A stretch of 64,000 bases of DNA. It comes from Chloroflexota bacterium (GTDB taxonomy: Bacteria > Chloroflexota > UBA6077 > FW602-bin22 > DAOUAE01). A model generated the notes under the pieces. The model saw only the letters and a list, made by a program, of their open reading frames with translations, was not told the DNA's origin and did no database searches. The stretch is taken from positions 26,371 to 90,370 of the forward strand of contig DAOUAE010000002.1 of assembly GCA_034433795.1 (NCBI GenBank), given 5' to 3'. Below, one piece after another: positions 60,042-64,000 of the stretch (positions are counted from its first letter, which is position 1; every line of letters starts with the position of its first letter). The position numbers and the translations under genes are program-made.

Positions 60042-61849
60042 GTGACAACTCTGTTGGCCATTCTCCTGGGGGCGGCCACGGTCTACATCGGCTACAACTT
60101 CTACGCCCGTCGGATCGACCGCGACGTGATCCAGCCCGACCCCAACCGGGCGACCCCCGCCCGCCTGTACATGGATGGGGTGGATTTTGTCCCCACCAGC
60201 CGGAACGTTCTCTACGGGTATCATTTCAAATCCATCGCCGCCGCCGGCCCCATCGTCGGCGCGATCACCGCGGCCGGGCTCTGGGGCTGGCTGCCCTCGT
60301 TGCTCTGGCTGATGGGGGGCGTGATGTTCATCGGCTGGGCCAGCGTTACAGCGCCATCATGGTCTCGGTGCGCAACGACGGCCACAGCCTGAGCGCCATC
60401 GCCCACCAGCTGATCGCCCCGCGGACGCGGCGGATCCTCCTCATCTTCGTGTTCTTCTATCTCCTGCTGGTCGCCGGCGCCTTCGCCAACCTGGTGGCCG
60501 GCGTTCTGCAGACCCCCTCGGTCCCCCTGGGGATCATCGCCCTGGCGGTGATGGGGGTCCTGGCCGGTCAGATGCTCTACCGCTGGCGCCTGGACCTGGT
60601 GGCCACCACCCTCATCACCGTCGGCGTCACCCTGGTCGCCGTCCTCCTCGGCGGCATCGAGGGCGGACCGGTCCAGGCCCTCTTCCAGAGCCTGAACGGC
60701 GCCTTCGACAGCCTGACCGGCGGCCAGGGCTTGGTCTCGGTCTACGACCCGACCCAGCTCAACCCCCAGACCCGTCAGCTGGGCGTGGACGTGCCCATCC
60801 GGCCCAGCTTCGTCTTCTGGCTGCTGATGACCTTCCTCTTCTGCTACTTCGGGGCCGTCCTGCCGATCTGGCGCTACGCCCAGCCCATCAACTACATCGG
60901 CTTCTGGCTCACCGCGCTGACCATCGTCTTCGGGGCGCTGGGGGCGCTTTTGGCGGTGGTCCTGCGACCGGACCTGGCCACCTTCAAACTGGACGCCTTC
61001 AAGGGCTTTATGGCGCCGGTGGCCACCGGCGCGCTCCAGCCGCTCTGGCCGATGCTCTTCGTGACCATCGCCTGCGGGGCCATCTCCGGCTGGCATGCCC
61101 TCATCGGCTCGGTGGGGACGGCGCGCCAGCTGGAGTATGAGACCGACGCCCTGCCGGTGGGCGGCGGAGCGATGTTCAGCGAGTTCACCCTGGGGCTCCT
61201 CTCGCTGATGGCCGTGGCGGTGGCCGGCCAGGGCAGCGGCCCGGCGGCCTTCGCCACCGGCGTGGGGAACTTCCTGAGCGTCTTCGGTCTCCCGCCCAGC
61301 TACGGCCGGGCCATCGCCTTCGCCGCCTTCGTGGTCATCGTGATCACTGTGGTGCAGCTGGTCTTCCGGGTGATGCGGGTCACGCTGGCCGAATCGCTGG
61401 GTGAGCGCTCGCCGCTCTTCCGCAACATCCACTTCGGGACCATCCTCTCCATGGCCCTCACCTTCCTGCTCGTCATCAGCGGCACCTGGATCTACCTCTG
61501 GCAGCTGTTCGGCGGCGCCAACCAGCTGATGGCCTCGCTGGCGCTGCTCATCGTCACCGTCTGGCTGGTGGCCAGCGGCCGGAATCCCCTCTACGCCGGC
61601 ATTCCCATGGTCTTCATGTACATCACTACCATGGCCGCCAACCTGGTCACCGCCTACAACCTGTGGCTGACGGTCTTCAGCCGGAACCTGGGCCAGCCCG
61701 GCCGGGAGATCTCGGTCGTCGGCTCGGGCCTGATGATCGTGGTGGCGCTCCTCTTGGTGGTCGCGGCGCTGCTCATCGGTCTCGACGGCTACCGGGCGAT
61801 CCAGCGCTATCGCGCCCGGCCGATCCAGCGGCCGGCCCCGGCCACCTAG
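60042..61849 (+). pseudogene. cstA: Carbon starvation protein A (CstA/BtsT)-family transporter, 1-nt frameshift near 60345
   Basis: TPARLYMDGVDFVPT, GYHFKSIAAAGPIVG and WGWLP, continuing as DYSAIMVSVRNDGHS and FVTIACGAISGWHAL. One inserted base restores an ORF of about 602 aa. Confidence 0.88.
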
Positions 61850-61929
61850 CGCCGGCGACAGAGGTCCGGTGAGCGCGGAGGGTCCCGCCCCGGGGCGGGA
61901 CCCTCCGCCTCCCGCGGAGGAAGAGAGGT

Positions 61930-62235
61930 GTGAGAGCGACGTCGTCCGCAACCCTGCGTGCGCGTCTGGAGCGGGCCTGGCGGACGCTGGGGGAGATTCT
62001 CTACGGCCTGACCGGCTACGAGTTCGCCCTGCACGCGCTGCACCGGCGGGCGGAGGTGGAGAATCTGCTCCTGGCCCTGCTCTTCGGGGACATGCTGGGG
62101 CTGCCGATCCTGCCGCCCTACTACAGTCTGCGGCTCCTGCCCTACGTCGTCCCCCAGATCGAGGCCTGGAAACGCCGCGTCCTGCGCGAGCGCTCACCGC
62201 TGGAAAGCGAAGAGTTCGATCTTATTGAGATGTAG
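61930..62235 (+). CDS. Small membrane-associated protein of the cstA-arsA module (copy 1)
   Basis: 101 aa with LLFGDMLGLPILPPYYSLRLLPYVVPQI. Paralogue of the next gene. Confidence 0.85.
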   Translation: MRATSSATLRARLERAWRTLGEILYGLTGYEFALHALHRRAEVENLLLALLFGDMLGLPILPPYYSLRLLPYVVPQIEAWKRRVLRERSPLESEEFDLIEM

Positions 62236-62466
62236 GGGGAAAGATGACCGGAGGCACACGGCTCGGCGGCCTGCGCGGCCTCCTGACCACCATCAAAGAG
62301 GTCATGTACGGCATGGCCTCGCACGATATGACCCGCTACGCCCTGCGTACCCGGGCGAGCATGGAGCACCTCTTTATCCTGATCACCATGGGCGATCTCC
62401 TCGGCGTCCCCATCCTGCCACCCTACTACAGTCTGCGCCTCCTGCCCTACGTCGTCCCCCAGATCG
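62107..62466 (+). repeat. 55-nt direct repeat (62107-62161 and 62412-62466), 53/55 identical
   Basis: ATCCTGCC[G/A]CCCTACTACAGTCTGCG[G/C]CTCCTGCCCTACGTCGTCCCCCAGATCG occurs in both small genes. Confidence 0.9.
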
Positions 62467-62522
62467 CCACCTGGAAGCGGCGCATGCTGCGCGAAAAAGA
62501 CCTGACCGACGCCATGGCCTGA
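62244..62522 (+). CDS. Small membrane-associated protein of the cstA-arsA module (copy 2)
   Basis: 92 aa with ITMGDLLGVPILPPYYSLRLLPYVVPQI. Confidence 0.85.
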   Translation: MTGGTRLGGLRGLLTTIKEVMYGMASHDMTRYALRTRASMEHLFILITMGDLLGVPILPPYYSLRLLPYVVPQIATWKRRMLREKDLTDAMA

Positions 62523-62536
62523 GCCGGGAGCAGACC

Positions 62537-63508
62537 ATGACCTCTCTCGCCCAGATCGTCACCCAGCACGCCTACATTATGTTCGGCGGCAAAGGCGGCC
62601 TCGGTAAGACCACCTTCTCGGCCGCCACCGCCTTCTGGCTGGCCGAGCGCGGCCACAAGGTGCTGGTCTTCTCGGTGGACCCCCAGGCCAGCCTCTCGGA
62701 CATCTTCCAGCGCGACCTCTTTGGCCGGGGCCCGGTCCAGATTATGGAGAACCTCTGGGCCCAGGAGATCGACGCCGACCGCCGCGTCCGCGAGTACCAG
62801 GAGGAGATCCGGCAGAAAATCCTCCGGCTGTACGGCTTCGAGCGCCTGCCCGACGAGATCGAGCAGTACATCCAGGCCGCGGCGGCCGAGCCGGCGATGG
62901 AGGAGAGCGCCATCTTCGACGCCGTCGTCGACATCGTCGTCCAGGGCAGCTACGACTACTATATCTACGACCTGGTGCCGCTCGGCCACGCCCTCTACTA
63001 CCTCAGCATGGCCAAGGTCTACGACGAATGGATCAACAAGATCACCAAACTCCGCCAGGAGATGCGCGAGTACGAGCAGGTGGCCATGGTTATGCGCCGC
63101 CAGAAAACCCTGGAGGAGGACCAGATCCTCAACGAACTGGAATACATCAAAAACCGGATCAACACCTCCTCACGCATCCTGACCGACCGCGAGAAAACGG
63201 CCTTCTTCTTCGTCCTGGTTCCGGAGGAGATGGTGATCCTGGATACGCTGAAGGCCGCCACCCTCTTCGCCCGCTTCGACGTCCCGATCGCCGGCTACGT
63301 CGTCAACCGCATCATCCCCCCCGCCCTCCAGACCCAGGCGGTGCCGGAGTACCTGCGCCACCGTATCGCGATGCAGCAGAAGTACCTGGCCGAGATCCAG
63401 CAGACGTTCGGCCAGCAGGTCCTGGCCGCCGTTCCCGAGCTCGAACGCGACGTGACCGGGCTCCCGATGATCGAGCGGGTCGCCCGCATCCTGTACGGGG
63501 AGCAGTGA
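62537..63508 (+). CDS. ArsA/Get3-family ATPase (single domain), copy 1
   Basis: GGKGGLGKT P-loop, SVDP (switch I), EPAMEE, DLVPLGH (degenerate DTAPTGH) and VVNR. Contains no Cys. Confidence 0.9.
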   Translation: MTSLAQIVTQHAYIMFGGKGGLGKTTFSAATAFWLAERGHKVLVFSVDPQASLSDIFQRDLFGRGPVQIMENLWAQEIDADRRVREYQEEIRQKILRLYGFERLPDEIEQYIQAAAAEPAMEESAIFDAVVDIVVQGSYDYYIYDLVPLGHALYYLSMAKVYDEWINKITKLRQEMREYEQVAMVMRRQKTLEEDQILNELEYIKNRINTSSRILTDREKTAFFFVLVPEEMVILDTLKAATLFARFDVPIAGYVVNRIIPPALQTQAVPEYLRHRIAMQQKYLAEIQQTFGQQVLAAVPELERDVTGLPMIERVARILYGEQ

Positions 63509-63510
63509 CC

Positions 63511-64000
63511 ATGGAGCCGCGCCTCACCCTCAGCATGGCCGACTACCTGCGCCAGCATCCCGCCCTCCAGTACATCTTCTTCGGCGGCAAGGGCGGCGTC
63601 GGCAAGACCGTCATGGCCGGCGCCACCGCCCTCTGGCACGCCCGCCAGGGACGCCGCACCATCCTGGCCTCGACCAACCCGGTCCACAGTCTCTCCAGCC
63701 TGCTGGACCAGGACGTCTTCGGCCGGCATACCCCGGTCCAGGGCGTGCCCAACCTCTGGGCCTACGAGATCGACACCCGCGAGACCATCGAACGCTCGAA
63801 GAACGAGATCAAGGAGAAGATCAACTGGTTCCTGCGTTTCGCCGACATCACCACCAAGGCCGATGAGTTCGTCGAGTCGGCGACGATGAACCCGGCCTTC
63901 GAAGAGTCGGCCATGTTCGAGAACATGGTCGATCTGATGCTCAAGAACGAGTACGAGGTCTACGTTTTCGACACCGCCCCGACAGCCAACGCCCGCCGGC
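63511..64000 (+). CDS. ArsA/Get3-family ATPase, copy 2 (truncated by the window end; not in the ORF track)
   Basis: Manual translation gives GGKGGVGKT, STNPVHSLS, NPAFEE and FDTAPTANARR. Confidence 0.9.
   Translation, partial: MEPRLTLSMADYLRQHPALQYIFFGGKGGVGKTVMAGATALWHARQGRRTILASTNPVHSLSSLLDQDVFGRHTPVQGVPNLWAYEIDTRETIERSKNEIKEKINWFLRFADITTKADEFVESATMNPAFEESAMFENMVDLMLKNEYEVYVFDTAPTANARR

What the first reader, a model, noticed from the sequence alone, without database searches (positions are those of the whole stretch)
62537..64000. The two ArsA-like ATPases have complementary degenerate catalytic motifs
Copy 1 keeps the switch I Asp (SVDP) but its switch II signature DTAPTGH reads DLVPLGH. 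Copy 2 has DTAPT-AN but its switch I Asp is Asn (STNP, codon AAC at 63676-63678). Established: the equivalent D57N change in yeast Get3 blocks hydrolysis while allowing ATP binding. Inferred: an obligate asymmetric heterodimer with one pseudo-active site. Copy 1 has no Cys, so it lacks both ArsA metalloid ligands and the Get3 CxxC zinc clasp.
Basis: partly seen in the sequence, partly recalled or inferred. Interest (0 to 1): 0.7.

Follow-up and report, generated by a model that had tools for sequence, protein, structure and literature searches.

The report
Paired ArsA-like ATPases, one catalytically dead
Two neighbouring ArsA/Get3-type ATPase genes belong to a very conserved operon with a CstA transporter and two small CstX proteins, and one ATPase always carries the Asn change that stops ATP hydrolysis in Get3, so the pair probably works as a lopsided heterodimer whose cellular job is still untested.

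Summary
Copy 1 (62537-63508, 323 aa) reads GGKGGLGKTT / SVDP / DLVPLGH. Copy 2 (63511 to the window end; 334 aa on an identical contig) reads GGKGGVGKTV / STNP / DTAPTAN. Neither has a cysteine. These states are fixed: SVDP and DLVPLGH in 72/72 orthologues, STNP in 77 of 79 (the other two unreadable by my pattern, none with Asp), from 80 species-level genomes labelled as several phyla. Both Asn codons are used and no Asp codon occurs.

More distant gene pairs repeat the split. An "A1" clade keeps the catalytic Asp. An "A2" clade has Asn or Ser, and in one lineage a destroyed P-loop.

So one hydrolytic and one non-hydrolytic subunit is well supported. "Complementary" overstates it, because copy 2 is degenerate in all three motifs, whereas copy 1 keeps the switch II positions I take to be catalytic. 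Heterodimerisation is inferred, not shown.

The genes end a conserved operon, CstA - DUF7990 x2 - A1 - A2. Castillo and Saier (2010) described this cstA-cstX-arsA association and proposed that the ATPase energises CstA.

Asymmetric ArsA-type pairs are already known (E. coli ArsA halves, from memory; the BagAB crystal structure). I rate this a new variant of a known kind, of moderate interest.

The parts
60042..61849 (+). CstA-family transporter gene. In this window it is split by a 1-nt frameshift near 60345 into ORFs 60042-60392 and 60359-61849.
   Evidence: PF02554 CstA, E 2e-34 and 1.4e-61. It is intact at 598 aa on contig L002. A same-strand CstA lies upstream of the cassette in 56 of 60 genome loci with enough upstream sequence.
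61875..61908 (+). Perfect 15-bp G+C-rich hairpin in the CstA-to-dufA spacer. It may be a terminator, attenuator or mRNA-stabilising element.
   Evidence: strand folding of 61850-61929 gives -50.9 kcal/mol, z = -3.3. No T-run follows it.
61930..62235 (+). DUF7990 (CstX-like) small protein A, 101 aa. It has a hydrophobic, Pro-rich core LGLPILPPYYSLRLLPYVVPQI, a WKRR motif and an acidic-aromatic C-terminal tail.
   Evidence: PF25952 on identical contigs. Weak hit to NF041419. Present in this position in 63 of 80 genome loci. Kyte-Doolittle 19-residue maximum is 1.72.
62244..62522 (+). DUF7990 (CstX-like) small protein B, 92 aa, a paralogue of A. Mean pairwise identity among the genomes is 75%.
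62537..63508 (+). Copy 1 = A1 subunit, an ArsA/Get3-family ATPase of 323 aa and the presumed catalytic partner. P-loop 62585-62614, switch I SVDP 62672-62683, switch II DLVPLGH 62969-62989, adenine-binding VVNR 63299-63310, no CxxC, no Cys.
   Evidence: PF02374 E 5e-74; TIGR00345 241 bits against a cut-off of 135. Archaeal Get3 3ug6 E 4e-63. Motif coordinates. Conservation.
63511..64000 (+). Copy 2 = A2 subunit, cut by the window end (334 aa in full), the presumed non-hydrolysing partner. P-loop GGKGGVGKTV 63583-63612, switch I STNP 63670-63681 (Asn56 AAC 63676-63678), switch II DTAPTAN 63970-63990.
   Evidence: PF02374 E 3.4e-36 on the fragment. Full length from L001. 3ug6 E 1.9e-57 with Asn on the catalytic Asp column. 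Conservation.

Best explanation
The two genes encode the A1 (copy 1) and A2 (copy 2) subunits of an ancient, obligately paired ArsA/Get3-type P-loop ATPase. They are the last two genes of a conserved operon: CstA transporter, two small DUF7990/CstX proteins, A1, A2.

A1 keeps what I take to be the catalytic set: the signature and P-loop lysines, the Mg-binding Thr, the switch I Asp, and the switch II Asp...Pro.Gly-His. A2 keeps the nucleotide-binding elements (P-loop, adenine-contacting Asn). It has Asn for the water-activating Asp, Ala-Asn for the switch II Gly-His, and Val/Ala after GKT.

Inferred mechanism: A1 and A2 form a Get3-like dimer with ATP sandwiched at the interface. The A2 site binds ATP but does not turn it over, so it acts as a lasting latch in place of the missing CxxC zinc clasp. 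The A1 site hydrolyses ATP and drives the open/closed cycle.

Further inference, following Castillo and Saier: the complex docks through the two CstX proteins onto CstA and drives or gates its transport, as ArsA does for ArsB.

Shown here: the motifs, their conservation, the pairing and the operon. Inferred: heterodimer formation, single-site hydrolysis and coupling to CstA.
For: Family and alignment.

Fixed motif states: invariant in 120 + 120 database orthologues. In 80 species-level genomes labelled Chloroflexota, Binatia, Rokubacteria/Rokuibacteriota, 'Deltaproteobacteria', Acidobacteriota and Myxococcaceae, STNP is read in 77 of 79 copy 2 orthologues and no Asp occurs. Asn is kept through synonymous AAC/AAT turnover.

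A2 is as constrained as A1: mean pairwise identity 0.764 against 0.787. It is therefore a selected function, not decay.

The same split recurs in pairs that are 36-48% identical:
- L086: STDP + DMPPFGH with SLNP + DTAAVAN.
- L093: SIDP + DMMPHGH with STNP + DTAPVAL.
- L088: SIDF with SLST.
- L090: SLDP with STNP plus a destroyed P-loop, GKSSVGNT.

A1 and A2 form separate deep clades in an NJ tree.

Gene order A1 then A2 is seen in all 72 loci that hold both genes. The gap is -17 to +32 nt in most and 2 nt in the window.

Asp-to-Asn at this residue gives ATP binding without hydrolysis in Get3 (PMC12506534; STNPAHN in PDB 7spy against STDPAHN in 7spz).

CstA lies upstream on the same strand in 56/60 loci, and also in L086, L090 and L091. 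The cstA-cstX-arsA association and the energising hypothesis were published in PMC2963123.

Precedent for heterodimeric, motif-asymmetric bacterial Get3-like pairs: the BagA/BagB structure 6bs3, whose chains read GKGGTGKST/VEVEG/DAPPTGR and GAGGVGKTT/TIDP/DTPPSRN.
Against: No direct test of A1-A2 contact was possible. No multimer prediction was available, and 62 very similar sequence pairs are too few for coupling analysis. The correlation of A1 and A2 distances (r = 0.89) is expected from shared ancestry alone.

A1's switch II is not canonical. In relatives it loses even Pro and Gly (DLDIQNH, DMPSLYY), so A1 may be a poor or specially regulated hydrolase.

One related tandem pair (L087) has canonical motifs in both genes, so pairing does not require asymmetry.

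Coupling to CstA rests on gene neighbourhood only. A G+C-rich hairpin separates CstA from the cassette. In about 33 loci roughly 800 bp, holding an opposite-strand ORF, lies between them. One related pair (L093) has no CstA in the 2 kb visible upstream. CstA itself is frameshifted in this window.
Confidence: 0.6

Rival explanations
1. Get3-like biogenesis factor. The A1/A2 dimer is a dedicated chaperone or targeting factor that shields the hydrophobic C-proximal segment of the CstX/DUF7990 proteins (a tail-anchor-like topology) and delivers them to the membrane, where they join CstA. The ATPase is then not a stable pump subunit.
For: The closest solved structures are archaeal Get3 proteins. 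The helical subdomain has the same length and hydrophobic fraction as in archaeal Get3 (0.38-0.41 against 0.35-0.43). DUF7990 has one marginal hydrophobic segment (Kyte-Doolittle 1.6-1.7) ending 17-26 residues from the C-terminus. A related A1/A2 pair occurs away from CstA among small coiled-coil genes and faint Gvp hits.
Against: The DUF7990 core is conserved far beyond what a generic membrane anchor needs: 75% mean identity for dufB, with invariant G, P, Y, R and WKR positions. That suggests specific, lasting protein contacts. The match of two CstX paralogues to two ATPase paralogues looks like a stoichiometric complex. The helical-subdomain measure cannot discriminate between the models.
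Confidence: 0.2
2. Two separate homodimers. A1 forms an active homodimeric ATPase and A2 forms an ATP-locked homodimer with a distinct role, for example a scaffold or sensor. The two never share an interface.
For: Get3-family proteins are normally homodimers. The tandem pair in L087 is canonical in both genes.
Against: Both proteins lack the CxxC clasp that staples Get3 homodimers. They show strict 1:1 adjacency and tight gene spacing. In one lineage A2 has lost its P-loop altogether, and such a protein could not form an ATP-sandwich homodimer. The structural precedent, BagAB, is a heterodimer (chains A and B of 6bs3).
Confidence: 0.1
3. Non-hydrolytic switch. Neither site turns over ATP at a useful rate. 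The pair is an ATP/ADP-sensing regulator that gates CstA according to the cell's energy state.
For: A1's switch II is atypical and variable among relatives (DLVPLGH, DMPPFGH, DMMPHGH, DLDIQNH, DMPSLYY).
Against: A1 keeps the switch I Asp, the signature Lys and the Walker-B Asp in every lineage examined. That retention is hard to explain without catalysis.
Confidence: 0.08
4. Arsenite or antimonite pump ATPase (true ArsA).
For: Database names such as 'arsenite-transporting ATPase' and a Pfam ArsA_ATPase hit.
Against: There are no cysteines, so no metalloid site. Each protein has a single domain. TIGR04291 scores 97 and 86 bits against a cut-off of 650. No Ars-family Pfam domain is recorded for any called gene within 10 kb on either side. 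The published analysis found that carbon-starvation operons never contain ars genes (PMC2963123).
Confidence: 0.01

Closest known systems
CstA/CstX-associated single-domain ArsA homologues (Castillo and Saier 2010, clusters 14-18; PMC2963123)
   Same: [quoted passage not shown] There are no ars genes. Adjacent ATPase pairs were noted in two organisms, and the paper remarks that the 'SXD' Asp is replaced only by Asn. The window's cassette is this system.
   Different: That paper does not treat the pairs as heterodimers (the word is absent). It does not assign Asn to one partner or report two CstX paralogues. The function was never tested. Shown here: the A1/A2 split is ancient and fixed, and the cassette is 66-100% identical across the phyla sampled.
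Mycobacterium tuberculosis BagA/BagB (Rv3679/Rv3680), PDB 6bs3-6bs5
   Same: Two adjacent Get3/ArsA-like genes in a bacterium whose products were crystallised together. Both chains have non-canonical and unequal motifs: BagA VEVEG for STDPA, and BagB without the signature Lys. That they form a heterodimer and that the phenotypes are unrelated to arsenic is from memory and from PMC10597346.
   Different: They are not orthologous. NF053622 and NF053621 score 24-53 bits against cut-offs of 400 and 521, and the PDB E-values are only 1e-6 to 1e-8. The degenerate positions differ. No CstA or DUF7990 context is known to me for BagAB. The primary papers were not available.
E. coli ArsA (PDB 1f48) with ArsB
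   Same: Two homologous halves form a pseudo-dimer with two non-equivalent nucleotide sites, and the ATPase converts a secondary carrier (ArsB) into an ATP-driven pump (established knowledge). This is the mechanistic template for A1/A2 with CstA.
   Different: ArsA is one fused chain of 583 aa, both halves keep STDP/DTAPTGH-type motifs, and it has a Cys triad for the metalloid. The window proteins are separate chains without Cys. One lacks the catalytic Asp and the partner membrane protein is unrelated.
Archaeal and eukaryotic Get3/TRC40, and the engineered D57N mutant
   Same: These are the best structural matches (3ug6, E 4e-63 and 2e-57). The fold, deviant Walker A and helical subdomain are the same. 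A2 naturally carries the residue of the hydrolysis-dead D57N mutant.
   Different: Get3 is a symmetric homodimer clasped by CxxC-Zn and works with Get1/2/4/5. Here there are two diverged chains and no CxxC. I know of no bacterial Get1/2/4/5 partners and did not search for them. The genes sit in a transporter operon.

Membership tests
ArsA/Get3/TRC40 superfamily (PF02374, TIGR00345) | Profile match above the curated cut-off | tested here: met
   Copy 1: PF02374 249.7 bits (cut-off 24.3) and TIGR00345 241 bits (cut-off 135). Copy 2 fragment: PF02374 125.5 bits; TIGR00345 122 bits, below 135 only because the window holds half the protein. The full-length protein carries PF02374.
ArsA/Get3/TRC40 superfamily (PF02374, TIGR00345) | Deviant Walker A GKGGxGK[ST] with signature Lys | tested here: met
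   GGKGGLGKTT in copy 1 and GGKGGVGKTV in copy 2.
ArsA/Get3/TRC40 superfamily (PF02374, TIGR00345) | Switch I catalytic Asp ([ST][TS]DP) | tested here: inconclusive
   Met in copy 1 (SVDP). Not met in copy 2 (STNP), and Asn is invariant in the orthologues. The family as published tolerates Asp-to-Asn.
ArsA/Get3/TRC40 superfamily (PF02374, TIGR00345) | Switch II DTAPTGH | tested here: not met
   Copy 1 has DLVPLGH and copy 2 has DTAPTAN. Neither is canonical. Published analysis says this motif is less well conserved in single-domain homologues.
Arsenical pump ATPase ArsA (TIGR04291 equivalog) | Fused two-domain protein of about 580 aa scoring above 650 bits | tested here: not met
   Single domains of 323 and 334 aa, scoring 97 and 86 bits.
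Arsenical pump ATPase ArsA (TIGR04291 equivalog) | Metalloid-binding cysteines (C113, C172, C422 in E. coli) | tested here: not met
   No Cys in either protein. 115/120 and 97/120 orthologues also have none.
Arsenical pump ATPase ArsA (TIGR04291 equivalog) | ars operon context (arsB/acr3, arsR, arsD, arsC) | tested here: not met
   The called genes within 10 kb on each side are CstA, DUF7990 x2, a PASTA kinase, MurT, GatD, MurJ and others, including several with no Pfam domain. None carries an Ars-family domain.
Get3/TRC40 tail-anchored protein targeting factor | CxxC zinc clasp at the dimer interface | tested here: not met
   The archaeal CDFC/CEFC columns align with AVPEYL (copy 1) and TPEF (copy 2).
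Get3/TRC40 tail-anchored protein targeting factor | Hydrophobic helical client-binding subdomain | tested here: inconclusive
   Segment lengths and hydrophobic fraction are similar to archaeal Get3, but Met content is lower (2-4 against 6-9). The measure does not discriminate.
Get3/TRC40 tail-anchored protein targeting factor | Binds and delivers tail-anchored clients; symmetric homodimer | not testable with these tools
   This needs biochemistry or multimer modelling.
CstA/CstX-associated ArsA homologues (Castillo and Saier 2010) | Single-domain ATPase of about 330 aa in an operon with cstA and a cstX of about 90 aa, with no ars genes | tested here: met
   The window order is CstA - DUF7990 - DUF7990 - A1 - A2 with gaps of 80, 8, 14 and 2 nt. 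CstA lies upstream in 56/60 genomes. That DUF7990 equals CstX is inferred from size, position and the single hydrophobic segment. The published CstX sequences were not compared.
BagA/BagB (NF053622, NF053621 equivalogs) | Profile match above the cut-off (400 / 521 bits) | tested here: not met
   Scores are 24-53 bits.

The most novel reading that the evidence does not exclude
The five-gene module (CstA carrier, two CstX adaptors, catalytic A1, ATP-latched A2) is a stable membrane complex. In it a single-site, asymmetric ArsA/Get3-type motor turns a CstA-family secondary carrier (pyruvate or peptide) into an ATP-driven or ATP-gated uptake system. This would be a second, independent ArsAB-style hybrid pump. 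It would be widespread in uncultured Chloroflexota, Acidobacteriota, Rokubacteria, Binatia and related groups, and under unusually strong sequence constraint (about 77% identity across phyla).
Probability: 0.3. Interest if true: 0.75.

Novelty: new variant of a known kind. Interest (0 to 1): 0.5.

Why it matters
CstA-family carriers are common nutrient-scavenging transporters (pyruvate, peptides). The idea that ArsA-like ATPases energise them has stood untested since 2010.

This work shows that the ATPase is a fixed pair with one natural "D57N-type" subunit. That gives clear handles for experiments: A2 N56D, A1 D48N and a 1:1 complex. It also provides a natural example of the ATP-locked Get3 state.

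The result warns against the database label "arsenite-transporting ATPase" attached to many of these proteins in the database listings. It also adds a case to the recurring theme of consensus/degenerate site pairs in dimeric P-loop NTPases.

Tried and rejected
1. BagAB primary papers (DOI, PMC6597400, PMC8404711) are not held. I instead recovered the BagA and BagB sequences from PDB 6bs3 by querying with remembered sequence.

2. AlphaFold2 of a DUF7990-DUF7990 fusion protein (P0391) gave pLDDT 73 but pTM 0.31, and only 3 sequences covered the first half. It shows helices but no reliable packing, so no fold search was run. The four fusion proteins are singletons and may be read-through or assembly artefacts.

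3. The fused ArsA-like proteins of about 650 aa in the representative search are not Rosetta-stone fusions of A1 and A2. Both halves are only 23-32% identical to either copy. My first motif regex also mistook their PPGLDE motif for switch II, which I corrected on reading P0288.

4. Hydrophobicity of the helical subdomain does not separate Get3-like from non-Get3-like proteins.

5. Horizontal transfer as the reason for the high cross-phylum identity: GC3 of the cassette (0.86-0.93) matches neighbouring genes, so there is no compositional sign of recent transfer into this genome. Older transfers are not excluded.

6. Literature searches for DUF7990, PF25952, CC-star and CstX found only the 2010 paper.

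7. The Pfam copy available to me does not contain PF25952 (0 hits). The assignment comes from precomputed annotation.
Full report
**1. What is in the sequence**

The last 2 kb of the window carry four co-directional genes separated by 8, 14 and 2 nt.
- Two paralogous small ORFs: 61930-62235 (101 aa) and 62244-62522 (92 aa).
- Copy 1: 62537-63508 (323 aa).
- Copy 2: from 63511 to the window end.

A JGI metagenome contig (L001) is identical to the window over 62537-64000 and supplies the full 334-aa copy 2.

Both large proteins are ArsA/Get3/TRC40-family P-loop ATPases. PF02374 scores E 5e-74 and 3.4e-36. TIGR00345 gives 241 bits for copy 1. Their nearest solved relatives are archaeal Get3 from M. 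jannaschii and M. thermautotrophicus (E 4e-63 and 2e-57). The two copies are 37% identical to each other.

**2.

| | P-loop | Switch I | Switch II |
|---|---|---|---|
| Copy 1 | GGKGGLGKTT | SVDP | DLVPLGH |
| Copy 2 | GGKGGVGKTV | STNP | DTAPTAN |

- The HMMER alignments put that Asn on the Asp of STDPAHSL.
- They put both proteins' 'PE[YF]' stretch where the archaeal proteins have CxxC.
- Neither protein has any cysteine.

**3. The motif states are selected, not chance**

- Among the 120 best database relatives of each copy (73-100% identical), every motif is invariant apart from conservative flanking changes.
- A scan of one genome per species returned 80 loci. They are labelled Chloroflexota (Anaerolineae, Dehalococcoidia, Thermoflexus), Binatia, Rokubacteria/Rokuibacteriota, 'Deltaproteobacteria', Syntrophobacteraceae, Acidobacteriota (Terriglobia, Thermoanaerobaculia) and Myxococcaceae.
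- In these loci SVDP and DLVPLGH occur in 72/72 copy 1 orthologues.
- Of the 79 copy 2 orthologues, STNP occurs in 77 and DTAP[T/A]AN in 78. The remainder did not match my patterns, and none has Asp.
- The Asn codon is AAC 43 times and AAT 35 times, never GAC or GAT, although one transition would restore Asp.
- Copy 2 is as constrained as copy 1: mean pairwise identity 0.764 against 0.787.

**4. The split is ancient**

Searching 1.84 billion cluster representatives with copy 2 showed that its close family collapses into essentially one 50%-identity cluster. There are also a few full-length relatives at 36-48% identity. Beyond them lie fused ArsA-like proteins of about 650 aa that are mostly canonical.

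I looked up six of those relatives. Four lie downstream of a second ATPase gene and repeat the pattern. (A fifth, P0264 on L089, has SLNP and follows an upstream ATPase gene that is cut by the contig end; the sixth is the canonical pair on L087, described below.)

| Locus | A1 partner | A2 partner | Context |
|---|---|---|---|
| L086 | GKGGLGKTT / STDP / DMPPFGH | GKTV / SLNP / DTAAVAN | after CstA and one DUF7990 |
| L088 | SIDF / DMPSLYY | SLST / DTASVVN | after a CstA C-terminal fragment |
| L090 | SLDP / DLDIQNH | STNP, with the P-loop destroyed (GKSSVGNT) | after CstA and DUF7990 |
| L093 | SIDP / DMMPHGH | STNP / DTAPVAL | different neighbourhood |

One tandem pair (L087) is canonical in both genes.

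An NJ tree puts all A1 partners in one deep clade and all A2 partners in another. The L087 pair is sister to the A1 clade. Canonical single-gene Get3-like proteins lie between the two clades.

So one lineage has kept the catalytic Asp throughout. The other lost it early and has kept drifting away from catalysis while staying under strong constraint.

**5. What the motifs imply**

In Get3, mutating this Asp to Asn allows ATP binding but blocks hydrolysis and traps the closed dimer (PMC12506534). The PDB holds a Get3-homologue chain reading STNPAHN (7spy) beside one reading STDPAHN (7spz).

In this fold one chain supplies the P-loop, switch I and switch II of its own site. Only the signature Lys reaches across the interface (established knowledge of SIMIBI dimers). 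The two proteins therefore do not complement each other's motifs.

The A2 site is degenerate three times over. The A1 site keeps the residues I take to be catalytic: both lysines, the Thr, the switch I Asp, and the switch II Asp, Pro, Gly and His. The changed switch II positions (Thr, Ala, Thr to Leu, Val, Leu) also vary among otherwise canonical family members, which show DLAPTGH, DMAPTGH, DTSPTGH and DTAPIGH.

The most economical reading is one hydrolytic site and one ATP-binding, non-hydrolysing site. The latter could replace the missing zinc clasp as a latch. This part is inference.

**6. Evidence for a heterodimer is circumstantial**

- A1 is followed by A2 in all 72 loci that hold both genes, mostly with a gap of -17 to +32 nt.
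- Both proteins lack CxxC.
- An A2 without a P-loop could not form an ATP-sandwich homodimer.
- The one structurally characterised bacterial pair of adjacent Get3-like genes, BagA/BagB, was crystallised as chains A and B of one entry (6bs3). Its chains are also unequal: BagA reads VEVEG for STDPA, and BagB reads GAGGVGKTT, without the signature Lys.
- No multimer modelling or biochemistry was available. The correlation of A1 and A2 distances (r = 0.89) follows from shared ancestry.

**7.

The small ORFs are DUF7990 (PF25952), with a weak hit to NCBIfam 'cory-CC-star'.

The order DUF7990 - DUF7990 - A1 - A2 is found in 63 of the 80 genome loci. In most of the others the contig ends inside or just upstream of the cassette.

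A same-strand CstA gene of about 600 aa lies upstream in 56 of the 60 loci with at least 1.5 kb of upstream sequence. It is also present in the distant systems L086, L090 and L091.

Castillo and Saier (2010, PMC2963123) described exactly this:
- ArsA homologues of about 330 aa with a single domain, in operons with cstA and a cstX of about 90 aa with a single transmembrane segment.
- Adjacent ATPase pairs in two organisms.
- No ars genes in these operons.
- An 'SXD' motif whose Asp is replaced only by Asn.

They proposed that the ATPase energises CstA through CstX. They did not discuss heterodimers or assign the Asn to one partner. No later paper in the searched library (open-access PubMed Central and bioRxiv) takes it up.

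DUF7990 has one marginal hydrophobic, Pro-rich segment (Kyte-Doolittle 1.6-1.7), followed by an invariant WKR and a polar tail. DufB is 75% identical on average across the phyla. An AlphaFold2 model of a fusion is helical but not confidently packed.

**8. Mechanism and rivals**

I commit to the following model. A1/A2 is an asymmetric heterodimer with one catalytic site. It acts with CstX and CstA, most likely as the ATP-driven or ATP-gated module of the carrier, by analogy with ArsA-ArsB.

| Explanation | Confidence |
|---|---|
| Asymmetric heterodimer with one catalytic site | about 0.6 |
| Coupling of that heterodimer to CstA | about 0.3-0.4 |
| Get3-like chaperone dedicated to the tail-anchor-like CstX proteins | about 0.2 |
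| Two separate homodimers | about 0.1 |
| Non-hydrolytic ATP/ADP sensor | below 0.1 |

A true arsenite pump is excluded. There is no Cys, each protein has a single domain, TIGR04291 scores 97 and 86 bits against a cut-off of 650, and no Ars-family domain is recorded among the called neighbours.

Points against coupling to CstA:
- A strong hairpin lies between CstA and dufA.
- An insert of about 800 bp with an opposite-strand ORF separates them in about 33 loci.
- CstA is frameshifted in this window.
- The L093 pair has no visible CstA.

**9. Novelty and score**

The gene system was described bioinformatically in 2010. Asymmetric ArsA-type dimers are known (the ArsA halves, BagAB), and the effect of Asp-to-Asn is textbook for Get3.

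What is new:
- The Asn marks one of two ancient, obligately paired subunits.
- The pair and two CstX paralogues form a cassette conserved at roughly 75-80% identity across several phyla.
- The A2 lineage degenerates progressively, up to loss of the P-loop.

This is a new variant of a known kind. It is useful and testable but not startling. Interest 0.5.

Noticed in passing
window 60042-61849 (frameshift near 60345): The CstA gene is split by a single missing base relative to contig L002, where it is an intact 598-aa ORF. The otherwise identical contig L001 shares this frameshift and has a second one near 61192. This is either a real pseudogene or polymorphism, or an assembly error.
   Followed up: partly
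window 61875-61908: A perfect 15-bp G+C-rich hairpin lies in the 80-nt CstA-to-dufA spacer (-50.9 kcal/mol for the spacer, z = -3.3), with no T-run after it. It could be a terminator, attenuator or processing site that uncouples CstA from the cassette.
   Followed up: partly
L045, L047, L048, L054-L056, L061, L065-L067, L071-L073, L077, L078, L080, L082 (about 50-100 nt after copy 2): A third DUF7990 paralogue (two in L078) sits directly downstream of the A2 gene in these loci, most of them labelled Anaerolineae/Anaerolineales and a few only Chloroflexota. The window's lineage lacks it: in L001 a convergent PASTA kinase follows instead.
   Followed up: no
36 genome loci, e.g. L069:1676-2284 (minus strand), between CstA and dufA: A conserved ORF of about 200 aa on the opposite strand fills a gap of about 800 bp between CstA and the cassette in many genomes. 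It has no Pfam hit and is absent from the window. Its relation to the archaeal 'CstY' (about 210 aa) of Castillo and Saier is unknown.
   Followed up: partly
L090:6001-6981 (P0247): An A2-clade protein whose Walker A is destroyed (GGKSSVGNTG). It still follows CstA - DUF7990 - A1 and is found on 6 contigs. It is a full pseudo-ATPase version of copy 2.
   Followed up: partly
L087:2-1883: A tandem pair of related ATPases in which both genes keep STDP and DTAPIGH. It is sister to the A1 clade in the NJ tree. It is either a pair that never became asymmetric or an independent duplication.
   Followed up: no
L093:2080-4057 and flanks: An A1/A2 pair with the same motif split lies among small coiled-coil ORFs with faint GvpG, GvpO and HSP20 hits. 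No CstA or DUF7990 is visible in the 2 kb of contig upstream. The module may serve more than one system.
   Followed up: partly
L086:4852-5349 and L089:1494-1979: Homologous ORFs of about 160 aa with no Pfam hit follow the A2 gene in two distant systems. In L086 a YHS-domain gene ending in CC lies between them.
   Followed up: no
P0391-P0394: Four singleton proteins join two DUF7990 units in one chain. If real, they support a CstX-A/CstX-B heterodimer. The linker of P0391 looks like translated intergenic sequence, so they may be artefacts.
   Followed up: partly
window 61930-62522: DUF7990 gives a sub-threshold match to NCBIfam NF041419 'cory-CC-star' (E 2.6e-10 and 7.9e-09). From memory, E. 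coli cstA and btsT are followed by small YbdD/YjiX proteins that end in Cys-Cys. Small partner proteins may be a general feature of CstA carriers. This was not tested.
   Followed up: no
window 1-64000: Overall G+C is 71% and falls to 64.6% over the cassette. GC3 stays at 0.86-0.93, like neighbouring genes, so the dip reflects amino-acid composition rather than foreign origin.
   Followed up: yes
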